Positions 4,109 through 36,617 are shown, numbered from the stretch's first letter. The stretch is 64,000 nt of DNA from an uncultured bacterium (GCA_964584495.1 CAZPAH010000001.1:7393-71392); one strand, 5' to 3'. The notes: a model not told the origin generated them from the letters alone. A program made the numbers and translations.

Positions 4109-5023
4109 GTGCCGGCAAGAGAGCTGAAGGAAAAGATCTACCGCCTCCGGAAGGAAAAGGGCGCGGTAATCCTCTCCCATAACTACCAGCCTCCCGAGAT
4201 CCAGGATATAGCCGATCACCTGGGCGATTCGCTCGACCTGAGCAGGCTCGCCTCCAAGCTCGACAACGGAGTAATCATATTCTGCGGCGTTCATTTCATG
4301 GCGGAGACTGCGGCGATCCTGTCCCCGGAGAAAAAGATAATTCTTCCCGATCCCCTGGCCGGATGCCCGATGGCCGACATGATCACTCCGGAGGGACTCG
4401 CCGCTCTCCAGGAAAAACACCCGGGCGCTTTAACGGTGATGTACGTGAACTCCACGGCCGAGGTGAAGGCTATGACCGATGTCTGCTGCACATCCGCGAA
4501 TGCGCGCGAGGTGGTGATGTCCCTGCCCCGGGAGAACGAGATTATCTTCGGTCCCGACAAGAATCTTGGAAGATGGGTGGCGGAGCAGACGGGGAGGAAG
4601 CTGATCCTTTGGGACGGCTACTGCCCCTCCCACCAAAGGATCATGCCTGAGGAGATCCGCGCCTTGAGGGACAAATACCCCGGGTGCATCGTGATGGCCC
4701 ATCCCGAGGTGAACCGTTACGTCGCGGCGGAGGCCGACGTTCTCCTGGGAACGGGCGGGATGATCGCCTACGCGGGAAAGAGCGATGCCGAAACCTTCAT
4801 CGTCGGAACCGAGCCGGGAATGGTCTACCGCCTCGAGAAGCTCTACCCGGCAAAGAAGTTTATTCCTGCCTCGAAAAACGCGATATGTCGCAACATGAAG
4901 AAGATCACACTCGAGAAGGTCCAAGCCTCGCTCGAGACGCTCGGGCCCGTGGTCCGAGTGCCGGCAAAGATCGCCGACCTGTCCCGAAGGGCGATCCTCA
5001 GGATGATCGAGACGGGCGCCTAG
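4109..5023 (+). CDS. nadA: quinolinate synthase NadA
   Basis: Full-length similarity to NadA: KEKGAVILSHNYQ..., conserved Cys residues, LLGTGGMI motif. Confidence 0.85.
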   Translation: MPARELKEKIYRLRKEKGAVILSHNYQPPEIQDIADHLGDSLDLSRLASKLDNGVIIFCGVHFMAETAAILSPEKKIILPDPLAGCPMADMITPEGLAALQEKHPGALTVMYVNSTAEVKAMTDVCCTSANAREVVMSLPRENEIIFGPDKNLGRWVAEQTGRKLILWDGYCPSHQRIMPEEIRALRDKYPGCIVMAHPEVNRYVAAEADVLLGTGGMIAYAGKSDAETFIVGTEPGMVYRLEKLYPAKKFIPASKNAICRNMKKITLEKVQASLETLGPVVRVPAKIADLSRRAILRMIETGA

Positions 5024-5127
5024 CGCGAATATCGTTTGACACGAATCGCACTTTCATTTAAACAATGACCGGAGCCGGATAACATTCCGGGAAAAATGTT
5101 CGTTTTTCCGATCGAGAGGAGAAGGTC

Positions 5128-6315
5128 ATGAAGAGAACCCTGGTCATCGCGCTCGCCGCCGCCGTCCTGCTTTCCACCGTCCCGCCGGTAACGGCGGGAG
5201 AGACAGGCGGGAAATATTCGTTCAAATTCGGCGGTTTTTTCAAAACCGACATGATCCTGGACAACGCACGCGTCTACCCCGGAGACTACGCCCTCTGGAT
5301 GGTCGACTACAATGAGGACGAGACCGCTTTCTACCTTACCGCCCGGGAAACAAGGCTCGGGTTCGACTTCGCCTGGGATGATGAAAAATTCAAGACAACG
5401 GCGAAACTGGAATTCGACTTCTACGGAAGCGGCGACGAAAACAAGGCCCAGCCGATGATACGCCACGCATACATGAAACTCTCGAAAAGCAACTGGTCGA
5501 TTCTCGCGGGACAGACGTGGGACGTAATCTCCCCGTTGAACCCGAAGACCGCGAACTACTCGGTCCTTTGGTGCCAGGGCAATATCGGTTACAGGCGGCC
5601 TCAGGTACGTTTCTCCGCCTGGGGAGACATAGGAGACGGGGCAAAAGTATCTCTCGATGTCGCCCTCGCCAGGACGCTCGGTTCCGACCAAGACGCCGAC
5701 GGTCTCGATGACGGAGCGGACGCCTCCATTCCCTCGATCCAGGGAAGGCTCGGGCTAAACTCGAAGCTCGGCGACGAAGGATCCATGGGGGTCGGCGTGT
5801 CGGGCCATTTCGGCCAGGAGAAATGGGGCCCCGAGGATTCCACCTCCACCGACTCGTGGTCGCTCAACGCCGATCTTTCGTTGAAGGTAAACTCCAGGGT
5901 CTCGTTCGCCGGGGAGTTCTTCACCGGCGAGAACCTCGGAACGTACCTGGGCGGGATATACCAGCGGGTCGACCCGCTCCACGATCCTCTTCCGGCGGTA
6001 GGCGGCTGGGGGATGATCTCGCTCAAGCTTCACGACAGGGTGACGTTCAACGGCGGGTACTCGTTCGACGACCCCGACGAAGCCAAATACCTCGTGCCCG
6101 CCGACGGCGAGCCCCATACTTTCAAGAATCTCAACTCGGAGATGTTCGGTAACTTCTTCATAGGGATCACCGGCAACGTCACGGCGATTTTCGAGGCGGC
6201 CTATATGAAAACCGAATACATGACCAGGACCGACAACGGTTCCTCGATCACCGATGCGACCGCCGATTACGACGGGCTCAGGCTTCAACTCTCCCTTAAA
6301 GCCGATATAAAGTGA
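5128..6315 (+). CDS. outer-membrane beta-barrel (porin-like) protein with signal peptide
   Basis: Signal peptide MKRTLVIALAAAVLLSTVPPVTA; alternating amphipathic strand pattern; aromatic C-terminus typical of OM barrels. Confidence 0.55.
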   Translation: MKRTLVIALAAAVLLSTVPPVTAGETGGKYSFKFGGFFKTDMILDNARVYPGDYALWMVDYNEDETAFYLTARETRLGFDFAWDDEKFKTTAKLEFDFYGSGDENKAQPMIRHAYMKLSKSNWSILAGQTWDVISPLNPKTANYSVLWCQGNIGYRRPQVRFSAWGDIGDGAKVSLDVALARTLGSDQDADGLDDGADASIPSIQGRLGLNSKLGDEGSMGVGVSGHFGQEKWGPEDSTSTDSWSLNADLSLKVNSRVSFAGEFFTGENLGTYLGGIYQRVDPLHDPLPAVGGWGMISLKLHDRVTFNGGYSFDDPDEAKYLVPADGEPHTFKNLNSEMFGNFFIGITGNVTAIFEAAYMKTEYMTRTDNGSSITDATADYDGLRLQLSLKADIK

Positions 6316-6377
6316 AAGGGAGCGGACGGACCGGAGCCGTTCGGAAAAGAATGATCCTGCCGGGCACCTTGATTTCA

Positions 6378-6412
6378 AGCCCTCCGGACTCCTTTCCGGA
6401 GGGCTTTTTTTT
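6378..6412 (+). terminator. rho-independent terminator after porin-like gene
   Basis: AGCCCTCCGGA / 6-nt loop / TCCGGAGGGCT followed by TTTTTTT. Confidence 0.8.
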
Positions 6413-6453
6413 CGATCGGATCTCAACGGGCTTCACGGGCGGGCCGGGTCCGG

Positions 6454-7404
6454 TCAGCCGGGTCCGGCGTGGAGCTCCTCGATCTCGTAGCTGTACCCCG
6501 CCTCTATCCTCGTTTTTCCGCCAAGGTAATTTCCTATAAGCTGCCCGCAGTTGCTTCCTATATGGTTCTCCTCGAGCTCCCCGATGCTGAGAACGACCCG
6601 GTACCCTGCCTCCTCGAGAGAAGATATAATCCTCTCTCCTTCTTCCCCCGGAAGCGGCAGGCCCCTCACGCCGCTCTCCCGGGCCCGCCCGGTAGGATTC
6701 ACCGGCGTTATCTTCACGATGAAGACCGAGGGATCGAAGTGGCGGAGAAGCTCCTCCGCGCTGACAGGCATCCTCTCGGCAAGGGCGAAGTTCAGCGACA
6801 CCTTCCTCCCCCCTCCTCCGTAGATCCTCTCTCCGTAACGCGCGATCCTCTCGAGGGACCACTTCGGCGTCGGTATGAGCCAGTCGCGCATACGTCGGTC
6901 GGTGGTGTGAACCGAAAATTGGATCTGGAAGCTTTCCGCGTACAGTTCCCTTTTGATATCGAGCAGCCGGTCGAAGAAACGGCACTTTCCCTCGGGGGCT
7001 ATTGTAGATATCGCCGGCATCAGCCCCGGGGCATCGTACCTGCCTGGAAGGCTCTCGAGAATATCGAGGACCGCCTCGTTATAGGACGGCTCCCCCATCC
7101 TTGCGAACTGGATCTTGAATTTCTCCACCGGCACTATGCGGTCGGGGAAGCGTCCGGCTACCATGTAATCGATCTGCGCCGCCATCTCGTCGGCCGAAAG
7201 TCTGCCACGGTAAGAGTCCGCCGCATCGCAGAATCTGCACCGGCACGGGCAGCCGTACAGGGTCGATACTATCAGCACCCATTTTCTCTCCCTCGGGATC
7301 GGCGGCTGCACCGACTCCACGAACTCGATATGCCTTCCGTTGGAACCTTCCGCCATGTATACCGTGGCGATATCTTCCCTTCCCGCCTTTGCCCTTACCT
7401 TCAA
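6454..7404 (-). CDS. RlmN/Cfr-family-like radical SAM enzyme (short form lacking the N-terminal accessory domain)
   Basis: IATVYMAEGSNGRH...LIVSTLYGCPCRCRFC (CxxxCxxC), RMGEPS, ISTIAPEG and C-terminal NCGQL all align with RlmN/Cfr landmarks (ETVYIPE, CVSSQVGCALECKFC, GMGEP, STSG, ACGQL); start overlaps upstream gene stop by 4 nt. Confidence 0.65.
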   Translation of the reverse strand: MKVRAKAGREDIATVYMAEGSNGRHIEFVESVQPPIPRERKWVLIVSTLYGCPCRCRFCDAADSYRGRLSADEMAAQIDYMVAGRFPDRIVPVEKFKIQFARMGEPSYNEAVLDILESLPGRYDAPGLMPAISTIAPEGKCRFFDRLLDIKRELYAESFQIQFSVHTTDRRMRDWLIPTPKWSLERIARYGERIYGGGGRKVSLNFALAERMPVSAEELLRHFDPSVFIVKITPVNPTGRARESGVRGLPLPGEEGERIISSLEEAGYRVVLSIGELEENHIGSNCGQLIGNYLGGKTRIEAGYSYEIEELHAGPG

Positions 7405-8363
7405 GCCTTTCCTCCCGGCGCCGATCCATCGTCCCTTTTCCGGTGACGGCGGCCGCCATTTAAATACGCGTAAATATTCATCGCGGCACGCATGCCGTCA
7501 CCGACCGCTATCGATACCTGCCTGCTCCTTCCATTTACGACATCGCCTACTAGATGGAGGCTCCCCGCGCCGACCAGCGAATCGACAAGCCCCTTGACCC
7601 CGGGACCGAGAAACGAAACGCAGGGATCCCTACCAACGGCGAAAAGGAGGGCGTCGGCCGCCAGCTTCCGGCTTCCGGCCGGCCCGCTCAAGCCTAGTAT
7701 CAGCCTCTCCCGCTTTCCGGAGCCGGCCTTCGAGACCCCGAGCAGCCCGGCGCCCGCCATCACCGAGATCCTCGCATTCTCCTCGCACCTGCGAAGAAGC
7801 ATGGGCAGGCACTTTGGCGAACTGCTCCTGCAGACTACGGTGACATCGTTGCGCCGGGAGAGTGAAAGGGCGTAATCGAAAGCTGCGTCCCCTCCCCCGA
7901 TGACGGCGACCTTCATTCCTTCCCCTGAAAGGAGCGGACTGGCCTCGAAGTGCACCGCTCCCACTACCTCCCCGGGCAGCTCGAGTCCCGGCGCTTTCGC
8001 ACCCCTCGTCCCCGAGGCTATCACTGCAACGGAAGTCTCCAGCACGCCCCTTTGCGTAACGGTTCTGAAAAAACCGCCGCCGTACTCGAGCGAGACTACC
8101 TCTTCCGTTCGCAGGCGGGCTCCGGAGCTTTTCAGCTGGGCGGCAAAGAGCGCGGCAAGCTCGCACCCCCTGATTCCGCCGGGAAATCCCGGATAATTTT
8201 CCACCAGATATGCGTTGGCGACGAGTCCTCCGGGCGCGCCCCCGTCGAAGACGGTCGTCTCGATACCGAAACGCGAAAGCTGAACGGCGGCCGTTATCCC
8301 GGCCGGCCCGGCACCGATCACGGATACCCTCGCCGCAGCCTTCTCCGGCTCGCGCCCCCCCAC
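7401..8363 (-). CDS. NAD(P)/FAD-dependent oxidoreductase (thioredoxin-reductase-like flavoprotein)
   Basis: VIGAGPAGITAAV Rossmann motif near N-terminus, second nucleotide-binding motif VAVIGGGDAAFDYA; start placed at in-frame GTG just after the isochorismatase stop, since the ORF track's longer N-extension overlaps the upstream gene. Confidence 0.6.
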   Translation of the reverse strand: MGGREPEKAAARVSVIGAGPAGITAAVQLSRFGIETTVFDGGAPGGLVANAYLVENYPGFPGGIRGCELAALFAAQLKSSGARLRTEEVVSLEYGGGFFRTVTQRGVLETSVAVIASGTRGAKAPGLELPGEVVGAVHFEASPLLSGEGMKVAVIGGGDAAFDYALSLSRRNDVTVVCRSSSPKCLPMLLRRCEENARISVMAGAGLLGVSKAGSGKRERLILGLSGPAGSRKLAADALLFAVGRDPCVSFLGPGVKGLVDSLVGAGSLHLVGDVVNGRSRQVSIAVGDGMRAAMNIYAYLNGGRRHRKRDDGSAPGGKA

Positions 8364-8364
8364 A

Positions 8365-9045
8365 TCAACCCCCTCCCCCACCGCCCAGGGCGATCTCTTT
8401 CTCAAGACCTTCCACGATGTGGCGGCACAGGACGGGATCTGCGAATCCGTGCGACAGGTTGCGCAGCGATGCCAGATGGAAATCCTCGTTATAGGTGGCC
8501 GTTCCATCGATCGGCATCAGAACGCCGAATCCCCTGACGAAAGCCGAGCGTGCCGTCGTCTCGCAGCAAAGATGGGTCATGACCCCCGTAATCACAACCT
8601 GCTCAACCGCCCTCTCGCGAAGCCTCTCTTCGAGGTTCGTCCCGAAGAAAGCATCGTACTGAGTTTTTATTATCGTCTCGGTTCCGCCTATGATCAGCTC
8701 CGGGTCGAGCCCCGAGAGACCTCCGCCCTCCTCTATTATATCGCTCCACCAAACTCCGAGCATCCCGGCGTCCTTCTTCGTGTTCAAGTGCCGCGTCAGG
8801 ATGACGGGCAGTGAGGCTTGAAGGTAGAGGAGTATGAGCTCTTTTATACGCGGCAGGATCGCCGGTCCGCTGGGAACGAAGGCGTGGGATGCTCCGTCGA
8901 GGAAGTACCGCTGCATGTCGAGAACGAGCAGGGCCGAGCGGCCGGCGACGAACCCCAACCGTTCTCTCCCTTGCTTCTCCAATTTTCCGAGAATCCTCGA
9001 AGCCGCACCGTCTATATCTTCTCCTGTGAAATATTTCTCTTTCAT
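8365..9045 (-). CDS. isochorismatase-family cysteine hydrolase
   Basis: LLVLDMQRYF...VITGVMTHLCCETTARSA matches isochorismatase/cysteine-hydrolase fold with catalytic Cys. Confidence 0.75.
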   Translation of the reverse strand: MKEKYFTGEDIDGAASRILGKLEKQGRERLGFVAGRSALLVLDMQRYFLDGASHAFVPSGPAILPRIKELILLYLQASLPVILTRHLNTKKDAGMLGVWWSDIIEEGGGLSGLDPELIIGGTETIIKTQYDAFFGTNLEERLRERAVEQVVITGVMTHLCCETTARSAFVRGFGVLMPIDGTATYNEDFHLASLRNLSHGFADPVLCRHIVEGLEKEIALGGGGGG

Positions 9046-9051
9046 CCCGCC

Positions 9052-10515
9052 TCATGCAAGCGGGGGAAGACTGTCCATCCCCGCATCCTTAGCTTCCCTC
9101 CCGATGATCTCCGCAAGCCTCGATTCCACGGCCCGGTCTAGCCGCTCCGGCTCGTGCTTCTCGAGGATCCCTTCCACCACCACGGCGGCGCGGGCCGCGG
9201 CGTCCTTTTTGCCGCCCGCGTGCCATTCATCGAGCGATCCTCTCTCTATGACCTCGCCGGGGATGTAAACCTCCCGCCTGTACCATTTCCTTGTATGCGG
9301 CAGGGAGAGAAACTCCTTCTTCTCGAGCCCCTCGATAATATACGGCATCGCCAGCAGATCGTCCCTCAGCTCGACCCCATCGCACAGCCTGAGGGCCATT
9401 CCGCAGATCTCGTTATCGAGGACCAGCTTCTCCAGGGACTGGCACGACTCGAAATCGAGCATCCCCGGGCCCGAAATATTATTCACTCCGGAGACCGCGG
9501 CGACTATCGCCCCCATCGCCGTCTCCATCCCCGCCTGAAAATCGACGGTCTTCGAATCGCTGAGCGCCATGTAAGCGTGGGTCGGCAGGCCGAGGTACTT
9601 TCCGATCTCGGCATACGCCCCGTCTATCATCATCGTCTCTATCGCCCCCATCGGCGTCGTTCCCTTGCGCATGTCGAAACAGGCCGGCGAGCCTCCATAT
9701 ATTATCGGAGCTCCCGCCGATGCGAGCTGGTGGATCGCTATCCCGCTGAGATTCTCGGCGCAATGCTGCGTCACCGCCCCGGCGAGGGTCACGGGCGATG
9801 TCGCTCCTGTAAGGGGCATCGAGACCAATTCGGCCGGAAGCCCCGACTTCGCGCAATCGATCAGCGCCTGGCATGTCAGATCGCTCCACATCAGCGGGGG
9901 AGAGGGGCAGCAGTCGAATATCGCCATCGGTTTTTCCCGGAGCTTTGAGCCTCCTCCCGCGACGGTGGAAAGCATCTCGTGCATTACGCCGAACGCTTCC
10001 ACCTTGAACGTTCCCGTCACCACCGGCTTGATAGAATGGAGAAGCGCTATATAGAGCCTGTACCTGTCCGCTATATCCTCCGGAACGTCGCCCGGTATCA
10101 CCCCGGTAGACTGCGCAGCGTAGCCCGGGAGGGCGTCGGTCAGCGTGGCGAATTTCACAAGGTCCGCCGTAACGGGCATTCGCGCCTCCCCCTTTTCGTG
10201 GTCGAAAATCCTGAGGGCGGCCGATCCGGGATTGAAATGGATCCTGTCCCCTCCGAGATCCATCACCTTCTCGCCGCGCCTGTTATAGAGGGCGACCTCC
10301 GAGGGCGCAGTGCCCAGCCCCTTTTCCACAAGGTCCGCCGGTATCCGAACCCGCCCCTTTTTCCCCTCCACCTTTCCCCCCGCGCCATCCAGAAGCGCGA
10401 TCGCCTCTTCGTTCTCGACGAAGATCCCCACCTTCTCCAGGATCGTCACCGCCTCTTCTACTATTCTCCTCCTCTCCGCCTCTCCAAACCATCCGACACG
10501 CGGTCTAACGCTCAT
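9052..10515 (-). CDS. MttB-superfamily (trimethylamine methyltransferase-like, non-pyrrolysine) corrinoid-dependent methyltransferase, likely quaternary-amine:corrinoid methyltransferase
   Basis: Full-length ~487 aa TIM-barrel MttB family similarity; no in-frame amber codon. Confidence 0.8.
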   Translation of the reverse strand: MSVRPRVGWFGEAERRRIVEEAVTILEKVGIFVENEEAIALLDGAGGKVEGKKGRVRIPADLVEKGLGTAPSEVALYNRRGEKVMDLGGDRIHFNPGSAALRIFDHEKGEARMPVTADLVKFATLTDALPGYAAQSTGVIPGDVPEDIADRYRLYIALLHSIKPVVTGTFKVEAFGVMHEMLSTVAGGGSKLREKPMAIFDCCPSPPLMWSDLTCQALIDCAKSGLPAELVSMPLTGATSPVTLAGAVTQHCAENLSGIAIHQLASAGAPIIYGGSPACFDMRKGTTPMGAIETMMIDGAYAEIGKYLGLPTHAYMALSDSKTVDFQAGMETAMGAIVAAVSGVNNISGPGMLDFESCQSLEKLVLDNEICGMALRLCDGVELRDDLLAMPYIIEGLEKKEFLSLPHTRKWYRREVYIPGEVIERGSLDEWHAGGKKDAAARAAVVVEGILEKHEPERLDRAVESRLAEIIGREAKDAGMDSLPPLA

Positions 10516-10542
10516 CCGGCGCCTCTCTTTCCTTTCAACAAT

Positions 10543-11214
10543 TCAATCCGTCCTGTACCGGCACGATTCGATGTCGCAGTTTCTGCACGAGTTCTCGCTT
10601 CTCAACCTCGCCGGATTCTTCGATATGTCTATCGCGAAAGATACCGATTTGCGCGGTATCATCATCCCGCTTTCCGACAACGAAACGCCGATCCTTTCCG
10701 CCGGTAGAAGCTCGAAGATAGCCCTCTGCTCCCCGATGTCCCAGTTTCCATACCCCGGGCTGGCCCTGCACGATGTTTTCAACCCCTCCCCGGCCGCCTC
10801 CTCTTTTATCCTGTCGTCCATATACCCGGCCACCGCTTCGGCGGCCACCGATCCGGCCGAATCCAGCACTACCGCCTTTACGAGCTCGCCCGAATCGGCC
10901 AGCTGCGTGACCATCCTCTCCAGCTTTTCTCCTATCGTGCAGACGCAGAATGCGACCTTCTCCAGCCGTTCGAATATGGTGGATCCCGGCAGGTCCCTGC
11001 CCGCCGTCACCTTGTAAATCCCTTTCGGCTCGATCAGGTCGAGGGCCGCAAGGACCGCTTCATCCACCTCTCTTCTCACCCTGGCGCCGTGGCGCGCCAT
11101 CACACCCTTGCTGCTTCCGAGAAGCCGAGCCATCTCGATCCGGTCTATATCGATCTTGAACCTCTCCAGGATTACCGGCTCCATATCTTCATCTTCCCGC
11201 CCCGGACAGGGCAT
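10543..11214 (-). CDS. methionine-synthase (MetH) reactivation/AdoMet-binding domain protein, stand-alone
   Basis: RASPGYGNWDIGEQRAIFELLPAERIGVSLSESGMMIPRKSVSFAI aligns with MetH activation-domain core ([22 protein letters not shown]...LTESFAMWPGASVSGWYF). Confidence 0.7.
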   Translation of the reverse strand: MPCPGREDEDMEPVILERFKIDIDRIEMARLLGSSKGVMARHGARVRREVDEAVLAALDLIEPKGIYKVTAGRDLPGSTIFERLEKVAFCVCTIGEKLERMVTQLADSGELVKAVVLDSAGSVAAEAVAGYMDDRIKEEAAGEGLKTSCRASPGYGNWDIGEQRAIFELLPAERIGVSLSESGMMIPRKSVSFAIDISKNPARLRSENSCRNCDIESCRYRTD

Positions 11215-12094
11215 CCCGCACCGCCGCGATGAAACGGGGATCGGTGCCGCAGCATCCTCCCACCGCGTTCGCCCCGGCTTCGACGATCTTCATCATGTCC
11301 GAGGCGAAATCCCTCGGCTCCTGCCTGTAGAATGTCTTTCCATCATCGATCTCCGGCAACCCGGCGTTAGGCTGGAAGAGGAGCGGCGTCTCCGTCAGCG
11401 ATCTGAACCTTCCGGCTAGGGGCACCATGTCCCCGCTCGAGATGGTGCAGTTGGCCCCTATCATCTCGGCTCCTTCCGGCGGCAGGGCTTCCGCCGCCCT
11501 CTCGGGCGTATCCCCCACGAGGGTGAAATACCCCCGCGGCTTGAGGGCGAAGGTCAGCTCTACAATAACCGGCTTGTCCGACACCTCCTTCACCCCTCTC
11601 AGCGCCTCGATCGCCTCCCTCATGTCGTACATCGTCTCCACGAGGAAAAGATCCACACCCCCCCGATCGAGGGCCTCCGCCTGCTCCCTGAAAGCCTCCC
11701 TTGCCTCGGCTGCGGCCAGCTTCCCCATCGGCGCGAAGAATTCCCCGGTGGGTCCTATATCGCCGGCCACGAAACGGCCGGCCGCGCCGTAATCGTCGAC
11801 CGCCTTTCTCGCCAGAATCGCCGCCTTCTCGTTGACGGCGGCCGCATCCATTTCTCTTCCCGCGGCGGAGGCGGACATCTTGATCCTGTTGCCCCCGAAG
11901 CTGTTCGTCTGTATCACTTCGGCCCCCGCCTCGAGGTAAGCCCCGTGTATAGCGGAGATATCGCCCGGCCGATCGATATTCCACCTCTCCGGGATATCCC
12001 CCTCGCCCAGGCCGGCCGCTATAAGCATGGTTCCCATACCGCCGTCGAACAGGATCACCTTCCTCTTCGAAATTTCCCTGTATCCGTTCTCCAT
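11189..12094 (-). CDS. homocysteine S-methyltransferase domain protein (MetH N-terminal Hcy-binding module, Zn site GGCCGT)
   Basis: KVILFDGGMGTML...IQTNSF...NAVGGCCGTDPRFI are MetH Hcy-domain landmarks; ATG at 12094 preceded by GGAAGG RBS is preferred over the GTG at 12133. Confidence 0.75.
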   Translation of the reverse strand: MENGYREISKRKVILFDGGMGTMLIAAGLGEGDIPERWNIDRPGDISAIHGAYLEAGAEVIQTNSFGGNRIKMSASAAGREMDAAAVNEKAAILARKAVDDYGAAGRFVAGDIGPTGEFFAPMGKLAAAEAREAFREQAEALDRGGVDLFLVETMYDMREAIEALRGVKEVSDKPVIVELTFALKPRGYFTLVGDTPERAAEALPPEGAEMIGANCTISSGDMVPLAGRFRSLTETPLLFQPNAGLPEIDDGKTFYRQEPRDFASDMMKIVEAGANAVGGCCGTDPRFIAAVRDALSGAGR

Positions 12095-12138
12095 GACCTT
12101 CCCGCTCCCCCCGCGACTCGTTCGCGGCCGCACGCCCT

Positions 12139-12801
12139 TTACCCGTTACCCATCAATTCCCTTAAAAGCGAGACCGCCGATACCGCGTCTCCCGCGTACC
12201 CGTCCGCTCCGATCTCTTCGGCCCACTTCACGCTGCACGGCGCCCCCCCTACCAGCACCTTGACCCCTTTCCTCATCGACCGTTTGGAGAGCTCTTCAAT
12301 AACCCTCTTCTGCCCCGGCATCGTCGTCGTGAGCAGGGCTGAAACCGCTATGCAATCGGCCCCGATCTCTCCGGCCTCATCAACGAATCTGGCGACCGGG
12401 ACATCGGCGCCCAGGTCCTTGACCTCGAAGCCGTTCGCCGAGAGCATCGTCGAGACCAGCGTCTTGCCGATATCGTGGATATCGCCCTCTATCGTGCCTA
12501 TGACCACCTTTCCCGCACCCACGCGCCCGGTAGAGCCTTTTTCGAGCTCCGGCTGCAGGACAGCCATCGCCTTCTTCATCGCCTCCGCCCCCATCACAAG
12601 CTCGGGAAGGAAGAGCTCTCCTTCCTCCCAGAGCCTCCCGACCTCCCTTATTCCGGAGGCGAACCCGTTCTCGATAACCTCCAAAACGGGCATACCTCTC
12701 TCTATCGCGGCCCCGGCGAGCTCAACGGCTTTCTCCGCGTCTCCCTCGATAACCGCCCGCGAACATTTCTCCAGGTGTTCCTTCATCAGATCTTCCTCCA
12801 T
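12139..12801 (-). CDS. cobalamin-binding corrinoid protein (MtaC/MtgC-like; B12-binding cap plus Rossmann domain)
   Basis: DxHxxG motif EGDIHDIGK, GxxG and SAL motifs of B12-binding domain. Confidence 0.8.
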   Translation of the reverse strand: MEEDLMKEHLEKCSRAVIEGDAEKAVELAGAAIERGMPVLEVIENGFASGIREVGRLWEEGELFLPELVMGAEAMKKAMAVLQPELEKGSTGRVGAGKVVIGTIEGDIHDIGKTLVSTMLSANGFEVKDLGADVPVARFVDEAGEIGADCIAVSALLTTTMPGQKRVIEELSKRSMRKGVKVLVGGAPCSVKWAEEIGADGYAGDAVSAVSLLRELMGNG

Positions 12802-12953
12802 GCTTGGTTATAGTAGCTTTCTATCAGCTTGACGCCCCAATGTCAATCGCTCACGAGGTCCGGCTGCATTAGTCCTGTAACCGGAGACGGTTCGGTGGTA
12901 TTCTGAGCCCGTCCGGGTGGTTGAAAAACCCGGGATATGCCTGGAGGATAGAG

Positions 12954-13964
12954 ATGAAAGCGATGATACTGAAAAAGATTTCTCCTATCGAGGAGCGGCC
13001 GCTGGAAGCCGTGGACCTCCCCGTGCCCGCTCCGGGGGCGGGGGAGATACTCCTGCGCGTTTCGATGTGCGGCCTCTGCCACACCGACATCCACACGATA
13101 GAGGGAGATCTCGATCTTCCGACCCTTCCAATAATACCGGGCCACCAGATCGTGGGCACCGTCGTCCGGAGAGGCGAGGGGGTCGACTCGCCCGTGGAGG
13201 GGACCAGGGTGGGCTCGGCATGGCTCAACAGGACGTGCGGCGTCTGCCGGTGGTGCGCCGCCGGGAAGGAGAACCTCTGCGCCGACGCCAGGTTCACCGG
13301 TTTCCACGTGCACGGCGGCTACGCGCAGTATACCGTTCTTCCGGCCGATTTCGTATATCCCATCCCGGACGGTTTCTCAGACAGGGATGCGGCGCCGCTG
13401 CTCTGCGCCGGGATAATCGGGTACAGGGCGTTTCGTCTAAGCGGGATAGAGCCAGGGGGGACCCTCGCGCTCTACGGCTTCGGCGCGAGCGCCCACGTAA
13501 CGATCCAGATCGCCGTTCACCGGGGCTGCCGGGTACTGGTTTTTTCCAGGGCCGAAAACCACAGGAGGCACGCCGTCGAGCTGGGGGCTTTCTGGGTGGG
13601 GGTCTCGGGCGATATGCCCCCGGTCAAGCCTGACGCCTCCATCATATTCGCTCCGGCCGGCGGTCTCGTGCCCGAAGCGCTCGAAGTTCTCGAAGACGGG
13701 GGAACGGTGGCCCTCGCCGGCATAACGATGACTCGAATCCCCTCCCTCGACTACGAGAAGCATCTCTACCACGAGAAGGTCCTGAGGAGCGTGGCCAACT
13801 CTACCCGGGATGACGGATTCGAGCTTGTGAGGCTGGCCGCCGAGATCCCGATAAAGACAGAAACGACCCTGTTCCCCCTGGAGGAGGCTAACGAAGCGCT
13901 TTTACTGATAAAGGAGAGCCGAATATCGGGGGCTGCCGTGCTGGAGCTACCCCGGGAGGATTGA
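12954..13964 (+). CDS. zinc-dependent alcohol dehydrogenase (MDR family)
   Basis: MKAMILKK..., catalytic zinc GLCHTD, structural zinc Cys cluster CGVCRWC, GxGxxG-like YGFGASAH. Confidence 0.85.
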   Translation: MKAMILKKISPIEERPLEAVDLPVPAPGAGEILLRVSMCGLCHTDIHTIEGDLDLPTLPIIPGHQIVGTVVRRGEGVDSPVEGTRVGSAWLNRTCGVCRWCAAGKENLCADARFTGFHVHGGYAQYTVLPADFVYPIPDGFSDRDAAPLLCAGIIGYRAFRLSGIEPGGTLALYGFGASAHVTIQIAVHRGCRVLVFSRAENHRRHAVELGAFWVGVSGDMPPVKPDASIIFAPAGGLVPEALEVLEDGGTVALAGITMTRIPSLDYEKHLYHEKVLRSVANSTRDDGFELVRLAAEIPIKTETTLFPLEEANEALLLIKESRISGAAVLELPRED

Positions 13965-27228: not shown

Positions 27229-29067
27229 CTACCTGAGAAGGATCACTCTCTTGGTAAGGGACCTCTCGCCCGTCTGGAGCTTGCAGTAATATACTCCGGG
27301 GGCCACCTTCGCTCCGTTTTCATCGAGACCGTCCCAGCTCGTCGAATAATCGCCGGGGTGGAGGAATCCGTCGTCGAGGATCACCCTCACAAGCCTCCCC
27401 TTGACATCGTAGACCCGCACCGTGCTCGTCGCCTGTTTCCCGTTGTCCGCCCCGCCGGAAGAGAATCTCGAAGGCTCGTAGACCCGCAACGTGATATTGA
27501 GATTGTCGACGAACGGGTTGGGGTACAGCCTAAGGCTCTCCCTGGGCAGCCTGTCCGGAGAGAGCGTGTCGTCCCCTCCAAAAGCGGCAATATCCGCCTC
27601 ATCTATCCGTGCCGAAAAAATCGTTCCGTCGCTCAGCTGGCCTTCTATGCTGAAAGATCTCTCACTGTCCAGGGCCGCCTGATCTATCGGGATCATTACC
27701 CTGCCGCCGGCCGTCTCGTTCGCCTCGGTCTGCTCCCCGTTCACCTTGACCCATTCGACCTCCTCGTCCGCCCCTCCCGGGATGCGGATCGAGATGGCCG
27801 GCCGGCGCCCCTCGGGGAGCCATACGGGTGCGAGGCGGGCTTCGGTCCGGACTCTTACGGCCTTTCTCGCCGGAACGACCCACCTGCACGTCTCTCCCGT
27901 CTCCTCGACAATTCCATTGAAGGTTTCCCGCGCCATCCGGATGTTCTTCGCCAGTCTTCCCGGGCTCCTTCCGAAGACGATCGCCCAGTCGATACGCACC
28001 CTTCCGCCGGGATGAAGCCTGGGCAGCCTTTCCACGTGCTGTACGACTGTAAAATCTCCGGAAACCGACCGAGAGCAATCGAGTCCTCCGCCGGACCCGC
28101 TATTTCCTCCATTGCCGGCATTTGCGCCCCCTTCGGCCCTTGCCGCCCCCGCGATTCCCCATCTTCCCCCGCTGTCGCCGTTATCGTTCCATATGGAATC
28201 GGCGGCTTCAGCCGATTCGTGAAGCCCGGCCTTATAGCCTAACGGAGAAAGATCGGGCGCCGTTACGCCGAGCATAACGACCGCCGCCAGATGGGAGTCG
28301 GCAGCGGCGTCCTGCGCTACGACGTATTCCTTCTCGCCGTCACGCAGGAAAAAGAAGCCGTCATCGTTTCCCCTCTGCAGATCCTCCCTGCGTCCAATCC
28401 GGAAATCGACGAACTGCGCGAGATCGAGATCGATGATATCCGGCGAATCGTCGCCTCCTGGTCGATACTCTATATCCGTGGTGAACCCGACGAAGTCCCT
28501 CACATGCCCGTATCCCCATGTGTAGCTCCGCTGGGTTATCGAGATTCCCGTCCCCGGGACAAACCCCCTCGTCACCATCATCTCGTCGCCTACGGCTGCA
28601 AAATCCTCATCTATGAGCCCATCGCCGTCGTTGTCGAGTCCATCCACCGCATCCTCGTCGACGGCTCCGTCGCCGTCGTCATCGGCCTCCGGGTTCGGAT
28701 ACCTCTTGCCCCCCTCGCACCCCTCGCAAAAGAGCCCCACACCGCCCACCGGCTCCACCTCCCACGGGAAAATCTTTATGACACCCGGCACGCCTTCCAG
28801 CATGAACCTCAAGCCGAACCCGCCGCTTCCCAGGAACTCGACCCCGTCCTTCCCCGGCCAGCTGAGTCCGTTCCCGCCGTCGCTCCGGGCCTCCCCCAGG
28901 GAACAGTTCCCGGAAACGGTGAGCGAGACCCTTCCCCTTCCGTGCACCTGCGCCTCCGGCCCGGCTTCGCCTGCAGCGTCGGAACCCAGACCTCCCCCGA
29001 CCGCCACGGCGGCCGATACCGCCACCGCCATAGGAAGCAGATAATTCATTATTCCTTTAGCGCTCAC
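27229..29067 (-). CDS. secreted calcium-binding repeat protein with C-terminal T9SS-type (FlgD-Ig-like) sorting domain
   Basis: Signal peptide; thrombospondin-type-3-like Asp-rich repeats (DDDGDGAVDEDAVDGLDNDGDGLIDED); C-terminal ~80 aa ...LYPNPF...VYDVKGRLVRVL...WDG.DENGAKVAPGVYYCKL...KRVILLR. Confidence 0.6.
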   Translation of the reverse strand: MSAKGIMNYLLPMAVAVSAAVAVGGGLGSDAAGEAGPEAQVHGRGRVSLTVSGNCSLGEARSDGGNGLSWPGKDGVEFLGSGGFGLRFMLEGVPGVIKIFPWEVEPVGGVGLFCEGCEGGKRYPNPEADDDGDGAVDEDAVDGLDNDGDGLIDEDFAAVGDEMMVTRGFVPGTGISITQRSYTWGYGHVRDFVGFTTDIEYRPGGDDSPDIIDLDLAQFVDFRIGRREDLQRGNDDGFFFLRDGEKEYVVAQDAAADSHLAAVVMLGVTAPDLSPLGYKAGLHESAEAADSIWNDNGDSGGRWGIAGAARAEGGANAGNGGNSGSGGGLDCSRSVSGDFTVVQHVERLPRLHPGGRVRIDWAIVFGRSPGRLAKNIRMARETFNGIVEETGETCRWVVPARKAVRVRTEARLAPVWLPEGRRPAISIRIPGGADEEVEWVKVNGEQTEANETAGGRVMIPIDQAALDSERSFSIEGQLSDGTIFSARIDEADIAAFGGDDTLSPDRLPRESLRLYPNPFVDNLNITLRVYEPSRFSSGGADNGKQATSTVRVYDVKGRLVRVILDDGFLHPGDYSTSWDGLDENGAKVAPGVYYCKLQTGERSLTKRVILLR

Positions 29068-31589
29068 TTCTCTTCTCCGACGCCCTCGTCACCCTCGACC
29101 CCGTCCCCTTCGGCCTGGTCCTCGGCGATCCCGCCGTCTTCGCCTTCATCTTCATCCCCGTCATCTCTCTCCCCCGCTATGAGCGTGACGTCCACGACAC
29201 AATCCCCTTCGTTGAGATTGATCACCCGCACACCTTTTGCCGGCCTCCTAATTAGCGATATCCCTTGAACGGGGCAACGTATTATCATTCCGTTCTTGGT
29301 GATAACCATAACCTCGTCGGATTCGACGACCTCCTTGACGGTTACCAGATCGCCGTTCCTCCCGCCAGTCGGGATGCAGACCACACCCTTGCCCCCCCGC
29401 TTTATATTCCTGAACTCCGATATCCTCGTTCTCTTCCCATATCCCTTCTCGGTCACCGAGAGGAGCTGCGATTCCCTCTTCACGATCACCATCTCGACGA
29501 CCTCGTCGTCCGAATCCAGCGTAACACCCTTCACGCCCTGGGTCGCCCGGCTCATCTCCCTCACGTCCTTCTCCCTGAACCTGATCGCCTTGCCCTTGCG
29601 CTTCGCCAGGATTACGTCGTCACCGCCGGAGGTTAGCTTGGCTCTTACCAGGCTGTCCCCTTCCCTGAGAAGGATCGCTATTATCCCTCCCCTGCGGGGG
29701 TTCGAGTATGCGGAAAGATGCGTCTTCTTGACGAATCCGTCCTTCGTGGCCATCATCAGGAAAGCGTCCTTTTCGAAGTTGCTCACCGGTATGAAGGCCG
29801 TGATATTCTCCTCTCTCGACATCTCGAGGAGATTCACTATCGCTTTCCCTCTCGCCAGCCTGCCGCCCTGCGGAATTTCATGAACCTTCAGCCAGTAGCA
29901 TTTACCCGCGTCGGTGAAGAAAAGAATATAGCTGTGGGTGGAGGCTATGAATATCTGCTCCACGAAGTCCTCTTCCTTCAGCCCCTGGCCCGTAATCCCC
30001 TTTCCTCCCCTTCGCTGGCGCTTGTATGTCCCGATAGGTATTCTCTTGATATAGCCGGTATGAGTGATCGTTATGATCATGTCTTCTTCGGCTATCAGGT
30101 CCTCCAGGTCGAATTCGCCCTCGTCGTCGACTATCTCGGTCCTTCGCTCGTCGGAGAACCGTCCTTTGATGTCGTCGAGCTCCTCTTCGATGATTCCCAG
30201 AAGCCTGCTCCGGTTCTCCAGCACCGATTTGAAATATTCGATCTTCTGAATGAGGGCGAGGTACTCGTCCTCTATCTTCTTCCTCTCGAGGCCGGTGAGC
30301 CGCTGAAGCTTCAGGTCCAGTATCGCCTGAGCCTGGATCTCCGTCAGCTTGAAGCTCTTCATCAGGCCGTTACGGGCTTCGGCCGGTGAGGCGCTCTTCT
30401 TGATCAAGGCAACTATAGCGTCGATATTATCGAGAGCCACCTTGTACCCCTCCAGCACGTGAGCCCTCTCCTCCGCCTTCCTCAGGTCGTACTTTGTCCT
30501 CCTCGTGACCACATCCACCCTGTGCTCGAGGAAAAGCGACATCATCTTCTTGAGGTTCATCACCTCGGGTTTGAGCATGTTCAGCGAGAGAAGGATCACG
30601 CCGTACGTGATCTGAAGCTGCGTGTGCTTGAAAAGCTGGTTGAGAACCACCTTGGGGTATGAATCTTTCTTGAGATCTATGACTATCCTGAGCCCGTCCT
30701 TGTCCGACTCGTCCCTTATATCCGATATCCCGGCGAGATTGCCCGCCCTGACCAGATCCGCGATCTTCTCGATAATAGAGGCCTTGTTGGTCTGGAATGG
30801 AATCTCGGTGACGACCACGCTCGTCTTCCCGCTCTTCTGCGTTTCGATGTTCGCCTTCGCCCTGAGCGTAATCTTTCCCTTCCCGGTCTTGTACGCCTCC
30901 TTGATTCCCGCCCTACCGTAGATGATCCCCCCGGTGGGAAAATCGGGCCCCCTCACGTGGCGGGAGAGCTCTTCGACGGTGGTGTCGGGATTCTTTAACA
31001 GCGCCTTAAGCCCCCCAACTATCTCCCCGAGGTTATGGGGAGGGATGTTCGTCGCCATGCCCACGGCGATCCCGGAGGCTCCGTTTATCAGGAGGTTCGG
31101 AACCTTGGCGGGAAGAACAAGGGCCATCTCCCGGGTCTCGTCGTAGTTCATGCCCAGCTCGACCGTTTCCTTTTCGATGTCGTTGAGAAGCTCTTCGGAG
31201 ATCTCGTGCATCCTTACTTCGGTGTATCTTTCAGCCGCGGCGGGATCGCCGTCTATCGAACCGAAGTTTCCCTGCCCGTCGACGAGCGGGTATCTCATGG
31301 AAAAATCCTGCGCGAGTCTCACCACGGCGTCATAGACGGACGCGGTCCCGTGCGGATGGTAGTTGCCGGTAACGTCACCGACCAGCTTCGCAGATTTTCT
31401 GTATGGTTTGCCGTGCGTGATATTCAGATCGTTCATCGCGAGAAGGATCCGCCGGTGAACCGGCTTGAGTCCGTCGCGTACGTCGGGCAGGGCGCGGGAG
31501 ACGATTACGCTCATCGAGTAATCGAGGTAGCTGTTCTTCATCTCGTCTTCGATGTAGACCGGTATGATGCGTTGCCTGTTTATCTGCAT
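29064..31589 (-). CDS. gyrA: DNA gyrase subunit A
   Basis: Full-length GyrA similarity including active-site region and C-terminal beta-pinwheel; acidic tail. Confidence 0.95.
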
Positions 31590-31667
31590 CTGGCTGTTCC
31601 TCCCGTAGCTGGAATGCTTCGCCGGCGGCGCGCGCCCCGGCAGATATAAGGGTTGATGAGATCTCTA

Positions 31668-33895
<2,228 letters not shown>

Positions 33896-33972
33896 AAAGG
33901 GACCTCCGTCTGTATCGCCCGGTATCCGGATAGTAGCCTCAAACCGGATAAAAATAAATAAAAAAATCTGTA

Positions 33973-35100: not shown

Positions 35101-35132
35101 CCACGCTCACCACCCTCCCATGATTCTCTTCT

Positions 35133-36608: not shown

Positions 36609-36617
36609 TGTGGATAA
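36609..36617. promoter_or_regulatory. perfect consensus DnaA box (TGTGGATAA) in dnaA-dnaN intergenic region
   Basis: Exact 9-mer; adjacent AT-rich stretch 36411-36440 and near-box TTATCAACA at 36543-36551. Confidence 0.7.

What the first reader, a model, noticed from the sequence alone, without database searches (positions are those of the whole stretch)
6454..12801. Split MetH-like corrinoid system using an MttB-family methyltransferase instead of a methyl-THF module, in an operon with a hydrolase, a flavoprotein and a radical SAM enzyme
Seven co-directional, tightly spaced or overlapping minus-strand genes. In transcription order they are: a B12-binding corrinoid protein (DxHxxG), a stand-alone homocysteine S-methyltransferase domain (GGCCGT zinc site), a stand-alone MetH reactivation (AdoMet-binding) domain, a non-Pyl MttB-superfamily methyltransferase, an isochorismatase-like cysteine hydrolase, a TrxR-like flavoprotein and an RlmN/Cfr-like radical SAM. 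The first four together rebuild every MetH module except the methyl-THF-binding one, which is replaced by MttB. In characterised systems that family demethylates quaternary amines such as glycine betaine, proline betaine or carnitine. This predicts a cobalamin-dependent quaternary amine to homocysteine methyl-transfer route to methionine, a B12 analogue of BHMT. The last three genes may process the demethylated product or add a second methylation chemistry.
Basis: partly seen in the sequence, partly recalled or inferred. Interest (0 to 1): 0.6.

Follow-up and report, generated by a model that had tools for sequence, protein, structure and literature searches.

The report
B12 methionine-synthase operon plus radical-SAM triad
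One operon in an uncultured Krumholzibacteriota-like bacterium joins a probable folate-independent, vitamin-B12-dependent methionine synthase (a gene cluster already noted in the literature, with an unknown methyl donor) to a separate, uncharacterised three-gene radical-SAM module that also occurs alone in other bacteria and in Asgard archaea.

Summary

They are not one pathway. They are two modules.

- **Module A (12801-9052).** It holds a methylamine-type corrinoid protein, a MetH-type zinc homocysteine methyltransferase, a stand-alone MetH activation protein and a non-pyrrolysine MttB-family methyltransferase. The four recur together without the last three genes, even in otherwise syntenic loci.
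- **Prior description of module A.** Williams et al. 2022 (PMC9324843) described this four-gene cluster and proposed a new methionine synthase with an unknown methyl donor. The MtgBCDE system (PMC12478193) gives experimental precedent for an MttB-family enzyme and a homocysteine module sharing one corrinoid protein.
- **Methyl donor.** All four glycine-betaine-binding residues of MtgB are replaced, including the Arg conserved in characterised acidic quaternary-amine enzymes. Betaine or carnitine donors are therefore not supported.
- **Module B (9045-6454).** It holds a cysteine hydrolase, a TrxR-like flavoprotein without the CxxC disulfide, and an RlmN/Cfr-fold radical SAM protein that keeps the methyl-carrier Cys but lacks the resolving Cys. 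It occurs alone in Heimdallarchaeota, Elusimicrobia and others, and its parts are fused in some genomes. Its function is unknown.

The parts
12818..12846 (-). Promoter-like site (TTGACA, 17 nt, TAGAAA) in the 119-nt divergent intergenic region upstream of the operon
   Evidence: Read directly from the sequence. The consensus scan did not list it, so it is weak. No riboswitch was found in calls to Rfam.
12139..12801 (-). Module A gene 1: corrinoid (B12-binding) protein, 220 aa, with DIHDIG at 12466-12483
   Evidence: PF02607 plus PF02310. TIGR02370 scores 223.2 bits, above its 215.3 cutoff. MtgC scores 212.7 bits, MtbC 210.7 bits and MetH 152.7 bits.
11189..12094 (-). Module A gene 2: MetH-type zinc homocysteine S-methyltransferase, 301 aa (the ORF as listed begins at GTG 12133; ATG 12094 fits the homologues)
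   Evidence: PF02574 at 2e-64, full length. Best PDB hit is the T. maritima MetH Hcy domain 1q7m at 5.5e-45, against BHMT at about 1e-16. GANC and GGCCG Cys motifs are located. Start assigned.
10543..11184 (-). Module A gene 3: stand-alone MetH activation (AdoMet-binding) protein, 213 aa, with RASPGY at 10750-10767 and a conserved C-terminal CX2CX4C at 10561-10587
   Evidence: PF02965 at 1.9e-10, above the gathering score, but only the C-terminal half of the profile is matched. Best PDB hit is 1j6r, the 214-aa stand-alone T. maritima activation domain, at 1.7e-5. Motif conservation across 7 homologues is.
9052..10515 (-). Module A gene 4: non-pyrrolysine MttB-superfamily methyltransferase, 487 aa. 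Leu318 sits at the Pyl position. S98/H313/S348/E356 sit at the MtgB substrate positions.
   Evidence: PF06253 at 4.7e-87. TIGR02369 scores 391 bits, below its 525 cutoff. PDB hits are MtgB at 1e-63 and MttB at 2e-57. Residue mapping over 120 orthologues is.
8365..9045 (-). Module B gene 1: isochorismatase-family cysteine hydrolase, 226 aa, with an intact D44/K127/C160 triad
   Evidence: PF00857 at 5.5e-36. The triad residues are invariant in 10 homologues. Fused to the radical SAM protein in P0278, P0297, P0299 and P0308.
7401..8363 (-). Module B gene 2: TrxR-like FAD/NAD(P)H flavoprotein, 320 aa, with EASP in place of the CxxC redox disulfide
   Evidence: Pyr_redox_2. TIGR01292 scores 117.5 bits against a 343 cutoff. 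PDB TrxR hits reach about 1e-24. No Cys is conserved in the family. Fused to the radical SAM protein in P0242, P0266 and P0287. Start assigned.
6454..7404 (-). Module B gene 3: RlmN/Cfr-fold radical SAM protein, 316 aa, with CX3CX2C at 7228-7251 and NCGQ at 6541-6552
   Evidence: Weak PF04055 hit. RlmN and Cfr profiles match only at 1e-8 to 1e-5, far below their cutoffs. The AF2 model has pLDDT 84.3. Top Foldseek PDB hits are 6fz6, RlmN and Cfr at 1e-14 to 1e-9. The only invariant Cys are C52, C56, C59 and C286.
6377..6406 (.). 12-bp GC-rich hairpin between the convergent radical SAM and porin-like genes; a likely shared terminator that marks the operon end
   Evidence: The T-run lies on the + strand only.

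Best explanation
The operon joins two separable modules.

**Module A** is a folate-independent, corrinoid-dependent methionine synthase built like a methylotrophic MT1 / corrinoid protein / MT2 system.
1. The non-Pyl MttB-family enzyme takes a methyl group from an unidentified methylated donor and methylates Co(I) on the corrinoid protein. The donor is probably an onium or amine compound, but not an acidic betaine.
2. The MetH-type zinc homocysteine methyltransferase moves the methyl from CH3-Co(III) to homocysteine, giving methionine.
3. The stand-alone activation protein rescues oxidised Co(II) by reductive methylation with AdoMet. It has the RxxPGY AdoMet motif and a conserved CX2CX4C.

**Module B** is an independent functional unit of unknown substrate. 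It comprises a cysteine hydrolase, a CxxC-less TrxR-like flavoprotein and an RlmN-fold radical SAM protein. The flavoprotein most likely supplies electrons. The radical SAM protein most likely performs class-A-like radical chemistry through its conserved C-terminal Cys.

The co-transcription of B with A is lineage-specific. It may reflect a shared dependence on the Met/AdoMet/homocysteine cycle.

**Shown:** domain identities, motifs, operon structure, modular distribution and fusions. **Inferred:** all catalytic steps, the direction of transfer and the link between the modules.
For: - **Domains and motifs are intact**.
- **No second methyl acceptor is encoded.** The operon holds no pterin-binding, MtrH, MtaA/MtbA or RamA gene.
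- **The corrinoid protein is of the methylamine type.** It scores 223 bits against TIGR02370 and 153 bits against MetH.
- **The homocysteine protein is closest to MetH's Hcy domain**.
- **The activation protein matches the stand-alone T. maritima one in size and sequence**.
- **The four-gene core recurs with the triad** in the window, L001, L003-L009, L012 and L026.
- **The core recurs without the triad** in L030, L034, L036 and L037. Three of these carry flanking genes also found beside the window's operon, in varying combinations: peptidase M49, Zn-ADH, NadA.
- **The triad recurs without any corrinoid or MttB gene within 10 kb** in Heimdallarchaeota, Elusimicrobia and other MAGs, with no other conserved neighbour.
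- **Fusions tie the triad together.** Flavoprotein-rSAM and rSAM-hydrolase fusion proteins exist.
- **Literature precedent.** Williams 2022 put forward the same hypothesis for the same cluster. MtgBCDE genetics support a shared corrinoid protein. Price 2018 notes that the activation domain can be a separate protein.
Against: - There is no experimental evidence for any step, and the methyl donor is unknown.
- Orthologues of the MttB protein at 67-71% identity also occur alone (L032, L035). The clade is therefore not exclusively tied to homocysteine methylation.
- Williams et al. report a canonical MetH in the same MAGs as this cluster. The role may be auxiliary or catabolic rather than the main route to methionine.
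- The triad has stayed co-transcribed with the core, with gaps of a few nt, across at least 10 diverged genomes. That suggests a functional tie which the two-module model leaves unexplained.
- The activation protein matches only half of PF02965.
Confidence: 0.6

Rival explanations
1. All seven genes form one pathway. MttB demethylates a quaternary amine. The hydrolase, flavoprotein and radical SAM enzyme then degrade or further modify the demethylated product.
For: The seven genes are co-transcribed with gaps of 1-6 nt or overlaps at the A/B junction and within module B. The seven-gene order is conserved in at least 10 Krumholzibacteriota-like loci.
Against: The triad occurs alone in Heimdallarchaeota, Elusimicrobia and others, with no MttB or corrinoid gene within 10 kb. 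The core occurs without the triad in loci that share flanking genes with the window (L034, L036, L037). The fusions join only triad members to each other and never to core proteins.
Confidence: 0.12
2. Module A is mainly catabolic. It would be a B12 analogue of BHMT that strips a methyl group from an abundant osmolyte to reach its carbon and nitrogen, using homocysteine only as a recyclable methyl sink. It would not be the cell's biosynthetic methionine synthase.
For: Characterised MttB-family enzymes are catabolic. MAGs carrying this cluster also encode a canonical MetH (Williams 2022). In Ruegeria, the GBT demethylation subunits (MtgB, MtgC, MtgD) are induced on N-osmolytes, whereas the homocysteine-binding subunit MtgE is slightly less abundant.
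Against: The operon has no downstream demethylation, C1-oxidation or transporter genes. It carries the MetH-type AdoMet activation protein rather than the RamA typical of catabolic systems. The residues that bind acidic osmolytes are absent. Stoichiometric catabolism through homocysteine would need a large methyl-cycle flux.
Confidence: 0.25
3. The triad is the reductive-activation or electron-supply system for the corrinoid protein. Electrons would pass from NAD(P)H through the flavoprotein and the [4Fe-4S] protein to Co(II), replacing flavodoxin or RamA.
For: The operon has no RamA or flavodoxin. The TrxR-like flavoprotein lacks CxxC, as TrxR-type ferredoxin reductases do (established knowledge of the family; its weaker PDB hits include FNR 5ygq). 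Thole et al. once proposed that a radical SAM gene in the Phaeobacter split-MetH cluster acts in B12 activation (cited in Price 2018).
Against: Core-only loci lack the triad. The triad stands alone in genomes with no nearby corrinoid genes. A cysteine hydrolase has no role in this scheme. The Phaeobacter radical SAM gene had no methionine phenotype. The radical SAM protein keeps catalytic class-A features, not only a cluster.
Confidence: 0.06

Closest known systems
Four-gene cluster of Ca. Electryoneota and 'diverse bacteria' (Williams et al. 2022, Environ Microbiol, PMC9324843)
   Same: The gene content is identical to module A: a non-Pyl MttB/MtgB homologue, a homocysteine S-methyltransferase, a corrinoid protein and an AdoMet activation protein. 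The proposed function is also the same, a new corrinoid-dependent methionine synthesis with an unknown donor.
   Different: That description is bioinformatic only. Here the cluster sits in a Krumholzibacteriota-like lineage and is fused into a seven-gene operon.
MtgBCDE of Ruegeria pomeroyi / split MetH of Phaeobacter inhibens (Mausz et al. 2025 PMC12478193; Price et al. 2018 PMC5764234)
   Same: An MttB-family MT1, a separate corrinoid protein and a separate homocysteine-binding methyltransferase work around one corrinoid protein. This links demethylation of a methylated amine to methionine synthesis.
   Different: That system also contains the pterin-binding MtgD, which is essential for both functions. 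Its genes are scattered, it is aerobic, and it is reactivated by RamA plus DUF1638. Here there is no pterin module and no RamA, a MetH-type activation protein takes that role, all four genes lie in one operon, and the MtgB glycine-betaine residues are absent.
MtgB/MtgC/MtgA glycine betaine:THF system of Desulfitobacterium hafniense and the related MtpB, MtcB, MtyB and MthB systems
   Same: The architecture is the same MT1 plus corrinoid protein. The MttB-family TIM-barrel protein is the best PDB hit at 1e-63, and there is no pyrrolysine.
   Different: The acceptor module is a homocysteine methyltransferase, not a methylcobalamin:THF methyltransferase. The substrate-binding residues Y97/R312/H348/F356 are replaced by S/H or Q/S/E.
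Cobalamin-dependent methionine synthase MetH, and the stand-alone T. maritima activation protein TM0269 (PDB 1j6r)
   Same: The Hcy-binding zinc domain, the B12 cap plus Rossmann domain and the AdoMet activation domain are all present as homologues.
   Different: The modules are separate polypeptides and the pterin (methyl-THF) domain is absent. The corrinoid protein is closer to methylamine corrinoid proteins than to MetH. The activation protein carries an extra conserved CX2CX4C.
RlmN/Cfr class A radical SAM methyltransferases (PDB 3rfa, 5hr6, 9p0p, 6fz6)
   Same: The fold is the same (Foldseek 1e-14 to 1e-9, TM about 0.6). The CX3CX2C cluster motif is present. The C-terminal Cys in a CGQ motif is equivalent to the methyl-carrying Cys355 of RlmN.
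   Different: Identity is only 16-24%. The N-terminal RNA-binding domain is missing. There is no Cys at the position of the resolving Cys118, which is Ile45 here. The protein always partners with, and is sometimes fused to, a flavoprotein and a cysteine hydrolase. An RNA substrate is unlikely.

Membership tests
MttB superfamily (PF06253) | Full-length match to the MTTB profile above the gathering score | tested here: met
   292.5 bits against a cutoff of 25, covering residues 6-476.
Pyrrolysine-dependent trimethylamine methyltransferase MttB (TIGR02369) | In-frame UAG-encoded pyrrolysine (Pyl334), and a score above the equivalog cutoff | tested here: not met
   The ORF is uninterrupted. Leu318 aligns with Pyl334. 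The score is 391 bits against a cutoff of 525.
Glycine betaine methyltransferase MtgB and the characterised acidic quaternary-amine methyltransferases | Substrate residues Y97, F356 (cation-pi) and R312, H348 (carboxylate). R312 is conserved in the characterised members (PMC13080624). | tested here: not met
   The equivalent residues are S98, E356, H313 (Q in 43 of 120 orthologues) and S348. S98 and S348 are invariant and E356 is present in 118 of the 120 orthologues.
Methyltransferase cognate corrinoid protein (TIGR02370) | B12 cap plus Rossmann domains with DxHxxG, and a score above cutoff | tested here: met
   223.2 bits against a cutoff of 215.3. DIHDIG and an SxL...GG motif are present.
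MetH (cobalamin-dependent methionine synthase) | Homocysteine-binding zinc domain (PF02574) with three Cys ligands | tested here: met
   2e-64 over the full length. The GANC and GGCCG motifs are present. The best PDB hit is the MetH Hcy domain.
MetH (cobalamin-dependent methionine synthase) | Pterin-binding (methyl-THF) domain PF00809 | tested here: not met
   No PF00809 or MtrH hit was found in any of the seven proteins or in the flanking genes scanned.
MetH (cobalamin-dependent methionine synthase) | AdoMet-binding activation domain (PF02965) with the RxxxGY motif | tested here: met
   41.1 bits against a cutoff of 25, but only profile positions 122-243 are matched. RASPGY is conserved. The protein matches the stand-alone activation domain 1j6r.
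MetH / methionine synthase activity | Methyl transfer from methyl-corrinoid to homocysteine | not testable with these tools
   This needs an enzyme assay or genetics.
RlmN/Cfr class A radical SAM methyltransferase | CX3CX2C cluster motif and the RlmN-type fold | tested here: met
   C52, C56 and C59 are invariant. The top Foldseek hits are 6fz6, RlmN and Cfr.
RlmN/Cfr class A radical SAM methyltransferase | Methyl-carrying C-terminal Cys (RlmN C355) | tested here: met
   C286 is invariant in an NCGQ motif that aligns with the RlmN/Cfr C-terminal region.
RlmN/Cfr class A radical SAM methyltransferase | Resolving Cys (RlmN C118), the N-terminal RNA-binding domain, and a score above the family cutoff | tested here: not met
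   Ile45 aligns with position 118, and the family has no fifth conserved Cys. The profile match starts at model position 77. The score is 31.8 bits against a cutoff of 290.
Thioredoxin reductase (TIGR01292) | Redox-active CxxC disulfide in the NADPH domain | tested here: not met
   EASP sits where TrxR has CATC. No Cys is conserved in the family. The score is 117.5 bits against a cutoff of 343.
Isochorismatase-like cysteine hydrolase (PF00857) | Asp-Lys-Cys catalytic triad | tested here: met
   D44, K127 and C160 are invariant in 10 homologues. The Pfam hit scores 124.7 bits.

The most novel reading that the evidence does not exclude
The hydrolase, flavoprotein and radical SAM triad would be a new three-component radical SAM system.

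- The radical SAM protein would be a class-A-like enzyme that keeps the methyl-carrier Cys but has lost the resolving Cys.
- It would use a dedicated, sometimes fused, flavoprotein to resolve or reduce its covalent intermediate, and a cysteine hydrolase to release or prepare the substrate.

In Krumholzibacteriota this system would be hard-wired to a folate-independent methionine synthase. Methyl groups from an environmental methylated compound would then flow through Met and AdoMet into radical methylation of an unknown small molecule or lipid. The MttB clade itself would use a donor class not yet seen in the superfamily, with a Glu/Cys/His-rich pocket in place of the aromatic-plus-Arg pocket.
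Probability: 0.12. Interest if true: 0.75.

Novelty: new variant of a known kind. Interest (0 to 1): 0.45.

Why it matters
If module A works as inferred, it is a route to methionine that bypasses methyl-tetrahydrofolate. It would draw methyl groups directly from environmental methylated compounds.

- It also changes how methionine prototrophy is predicted from genomes.
- The donor is the open question. The pocket differs from every characterised MttB-family enzyme.

Module B is a compact, widely scattered radical SAM system with no known function. It occurs in bacteria and in Heimdall-type Asgard archaea and shows gene fusions. Its RlmN-like protein lacks half of the canonical two-cysteine mechanism, which makes it a tractable target for enzymology.

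Tried and rejected
1. **Regulatory RNA.** I looked for a riboswitch (SAM, cobalamin) upstream of the operon that would tie it to methionine or B12 regulation. None was found.
2. **metH/metE in the window.** The ten largest remaining ORFs are housekeeping or protease genes (gyrA, gyrB, dnaA, yidC, mnmE, mnmG and others). A 64-kb window cannot show that these genes are absent from the genome.
3. **The window's own contig.** A look-up of the exact MttB protein found no record.
4. **A conserved partner for the triad outside Krumholzibacteriota.** Neighbour clustering over 15 loci found only the triad itself conserved. The neighbours vary: Psd/PssA, a SAM methyltransferase, DegV, TPR, formamidase, Na/H exchangers, PAP2 and a tocopherol-cyclase-like protein.
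5. **Supplementary tables of Williams et al.** These would list taxa and show whether the triad was seen. They are not held.
6. **Literature on the triad.** Nothing was found.
7. **Link to queuine lyase QueL.** I tried to link the radical SAM family to QueL through QueT-fused relatives. NCBIfam has no matching model, and the papers read give no family assignment. This remains a lead only.
8. **Fold search against afdb50.** The library was unavailable.

Full report
**Observation.** Seven ORFs lie head-to-tail on the minus strand between 12801 and 6454.

| Window coordinates | Assignment | Key scores |
|---|---|---|
| 12139-12801 | Corrinoid protein, B12-binding_2 plus B12-binding | TIGR02370 223.2 bits, above its cutoff |
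| 11189-12133 | Homocysteine S-methyltransferase | PF02574, 2e-64, full length |
| 10543-11214 | MetH activation domain | PF02965, 1.9e-10, C-terminal half of the profile only |
| 9052-10515 | MttB family | PF06253, 4.7e-87 |
| 8365-9045 | Isochorismatase family | PF00857, 5.5e-36 |
| 7401-8507 | TrxR-like flavoprotein | TIGR01292, 4.8e-34, far below cutoff |
| 6454-7404 | Radical SAM protein | Only distantly RlmN/Cfr-like, E about 1e-8 |

Homologue alignments and ribosome-binding sites move three starts: ATG 12094, ATG 11184 and GTG 8363. The intergenic gaps are then 44, 4, 27, 6, 1 and -4 nt.

The operon is bounded as follows.
- Upstream is a divergent Zn-alcohol dehydrogenase gene, with a TTGACA-17-TAGAAA site in the 119-nt spacer.
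- Downstream is a 12-bp hairpin at 6377-6406, shared with a convergent porin-like gene.
- No Rfam riboswitch is present.

**Provenance and conservation.** The MttB protein is on record from a single NCBI contig of 89.6 kb. The closest loci are Krumholzibacteriota MAGs. L001 (GCA_003369535.1) shares the whole seven-gene cluster and its flanks. L003 has the same cluster with different flanks. A scan of GTDB species genomes seeded with the radical SAM protein returned 26 loci. tblastn with all seven proteins showed the full cluster in L004-L009, L012 and L026.

**Two modules, not one pathway.** The same analysis shows that the last three genes travel on their own.
- In eight Heimdallarchaeota/Asgard loci the order is rSAM, hydrolase, flavoprotein.
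- In an Elusimicrobia MAG (L024) and in L021, L023 and L028 the order is hydrolase, flavoprotein, rSAM.
- None of these loci has a corrinoid, Hcy-methyltransferase, activation or MttB gene within 10 kb.
- Clustering all neighbouring ORFs of 15 such loci found nothing conserved beyond the triad. The Pfam assignments of the neighbours are heterogeneous.

Conversely, the first four genes occur without the triad in L030/L031, L034, L036 and L037. L034, L036 and L037 carry flanking genes also found beside the window's operon, in varying combinations (peptidase M49, Zn-ADH, NadA). The triad therefore behaves as an insertion or deletion unit.

An exhaustive HMMER search of 1.84 billion representatives found a small family: 88 clusters at E<=1e-30. 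Among them are flavoprotein-rSAM fusions (P0242, P0266, P0287) and rSAM-isochorismatase fusions (P0278, P0297, P0299, P0308). These are Rosetta-stone evidence that the triad is one functional unit. No fusion to a module A protein was seen.

**Module A.**
- **Corrinoid protein.** It scores higher against methylamine-type corrinoid families than against MetH: TIGR02370 223 bits, MtgC 213 bits, MtbC 211 bits, MetH 153 bits. It has DIHDIG.
- **Homocysteine protein.** It is closest to the MetH Hcy domain (T. maritima 1q7m, 5.5e-45, against BHMT at about 1e-16). It keeps the Cys motifs.
- **Activation protein.** It has the size of the stand-alone T. maritima activation domain 1j6r and is related to it (1.7e-5). 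It keeps RxSPGY. In all seven homologues examined it also carries a C-terminal CX2CX4C and a CTIG cysteine. This may be a metal or Fe-S site for electron entry, which is inference.
- **Missing partners.** There is no pterin-binding, MtaA/MtbA-type or RamA gene in the operon.
- **Simplest reading.** The system is MT1 (MttB homologue) to corrinoid protein to MT2 (homocysteine methyltransferase), with MetH-style reductive remethylation as the repair step.

**Methyl donor.**
- The MttB homologue has Leu318 at the pyrrolysine position and no in-frame stop.
- The glycine-betaine-bound MtgB structure paper (PMC13080624) defines Y97 and F356 as cation-pi residues and R312 and H348 as carboxylate binders. 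It states that R312 is conserved in the characterised acidic quaternary-amine enzymes.
- In the window protein and 119 orthologues these positions are S98, E356, H313 (Q in 43) and S348.
- Clade-specific invariant residues include D201-C202-C203, C221, H262, Y315, E356 and C358.
- Glycine betaine, proline betaine and carnitine are therefore not supported as donors. The true donor cannot be named from sequence.
- Orthologues at 67-71% identity also occur without the other three genes (L032, L035).

**Literature.**
- Williams et al. 2022 (PMC9324843) described this four-gene cluster in Ca. Electryoneota and 'diverse bacteria'. They placed its MttB homologue in an uncharacterised clade and proposed a novel corrinoid-dependent methionine synthesis with an unknown donor. 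They also noted that a canonical MetH coexists with it.
- Mausz et al. 2025 (PMC12478193) showed genetically that, in Ruegeria, one corrinoid protein (MtgC) serves both glycine betaine demethylation (MtgB) and methionine synthesis (MtgE). That system, however, needs an essential pterin module (MtgD) and RamA/DUF1638 reactivation.
- Price et al. 2018 (PMC5764234) established the split MetH and noted that the activation domain can be a separate protein.

**Module B.**
- **Hydrolase.** It keeps the Asp-Lys-Cys triad.
- **Flavoprotein.** It has FAD and NAD(P)H motifs but EASP in place of the TrxR CxxC. The family has no conserved Cys.
- **Radical SAM protein, structure.** The model is confident (pLDDT 84.3, pTM 0.86). 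Its best structural matches are class A methyltransferases: 6fz6, RlmN and Cfr at E 1e-14 to 1e-9.
- **Radical SAM protein, cysteines.** Its only invariant cysteines are the cluster ligands and C286 in an NCGQ motif, which matches RlmN's methyl-carrying C355. Ile45 sits where RlmN has the resolving C118, and the N-terminal RNA-binding domain is absent.
- **Basis for the RlmN roles.** The roles of C355 and C118 come from established RlmN enzymology. The PDB titles 'C118A RlmN with cross-linked tRNA' agree with it.
- **Working inference.** The protein performs class-A-like radical chemistry on a non-RNA substrate, with the partner flavoprotein as reductant.
- **Distant relatives.** More distant relatives (29-31% identity) are fused to a QueT transporter domain, and one also to an MTA/SAH nucleosidase. 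This hints at salvage of a nucleobase-like molecule but is only a lead.

**Why the modules are joined here.** This is unexplained. A shared dependence on the Met/AdoMet/homocysteine cycle is the most economical idea. A corrinoid-reactivation role for the triad is unlikely, given the core-only and triad-only loci.

**Verdict.** The feature is real and conserved. Module A is a new variant of known corrinoid three-component methyltransferase systems. It has been described in silico but never characterised. Module B is an uncharacterised radical SAM system. Interest is moderate.

Noticed in passing
window 10561-10587 (C-terminus of the activation protein): A CX2CX4C motif (SCRNCDIESC) plus a CTIG cysteine are conserved in all seven homologues of the stand-alone activation protein. 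They may form a metal or Fe-S site for electron input. I did not check whether TM0269 (1j6r) or the MetH activation domains have this motif.
   Followed up: partly
window 9052-10515 (MttB homologue: residues D201, C202, C203, C221, H262, Y315, E356, C358): A set of Cys, His, Glu and Tyr residues is conserved in at least 118 of 120 orthologues. These residues differ from both MtgB and Pyl-MttB (C203 is shared with MttB). Several lie next to the positions that bind glycine betaine in MtgB. This could be a metal site or a new substrate pocket.
   Followed up: partly
P0343, P0370 (relatives of the window radical SAM protein, 29-31% identity): Distant relatives are fused to a QueT (queuosine-precursor ECF S-component) domain. 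In P0370 there is also an MTA/SAH nucleosidase domain. Because queT and queL are adjacent in C. difficile, these may be queuine-lyase-like enzymes. QueL's family could not be verified.
   Followed up: partly
L024:896-4857; L038:59-5716; L015-L019, L025 (Heimdallarchaeota): Some triad loci have lipid-related neighbours. L024 has PS decarboxylase and a CDP-alcohol phosphatidyltransferase in the same operon. L038 has PAP2_C, a tocopherol-cyclase-like protein and a GMC oxidoreductase after an rSAM-hydrolase fusion. The Heimdall loci have a divergent DegV and, in some, a formamidase. The pattern is not consistent enough to assign a substrate.
   Followed up: partly
L039:1653-3816 and 4916-7431: A hydrolase gene followed by a flavoprotein-rSAM fusion lies about 1-2 kb from two URO-D-family genes on the opposite strand. 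URO-D is the MtaA/MtbA-type methylcobamide methyltransferase family. This is a second, weak, association of the triad with corrinoid methyl transfer.
   Followed up: no
L026:9129-10931; L027:726-1620: The flavoprotein and radical SAM genes each align as two tblastn pieces in different frames. They are either frameshifted pseudogenes or assembly errors.
   Followed up: no
window 12921-13964 (+): A Zn-dependent alcohol dehydrogenase (TIGR02822, above cutoff) is divergently transcribed from the operon. It is kept next to the cluster in L001, L012, L034 and L037 but is absent in L003, L030 and L036. This is probably lineage synteny rather than part of the system.
   Followed up: partly
window 29064-45310: The window carries gyrA, gyrB, dnaA, yidC, mnmE and mnmG. 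The operon therefore lies about 25 kb from the probable replication origin region.
   Followed up: no
Phaeobacter inhibens PGA1_c13360 (literature, PMC5764234): A radical SAM gene, numbered between the B12-binding and homocysteine-binding genes of the Phaeobacter split MetH, had no methionine phenotype. I could not test whether it is related to the window's radical SAM protein because the sequence was not retrievable.
   Followed up: no
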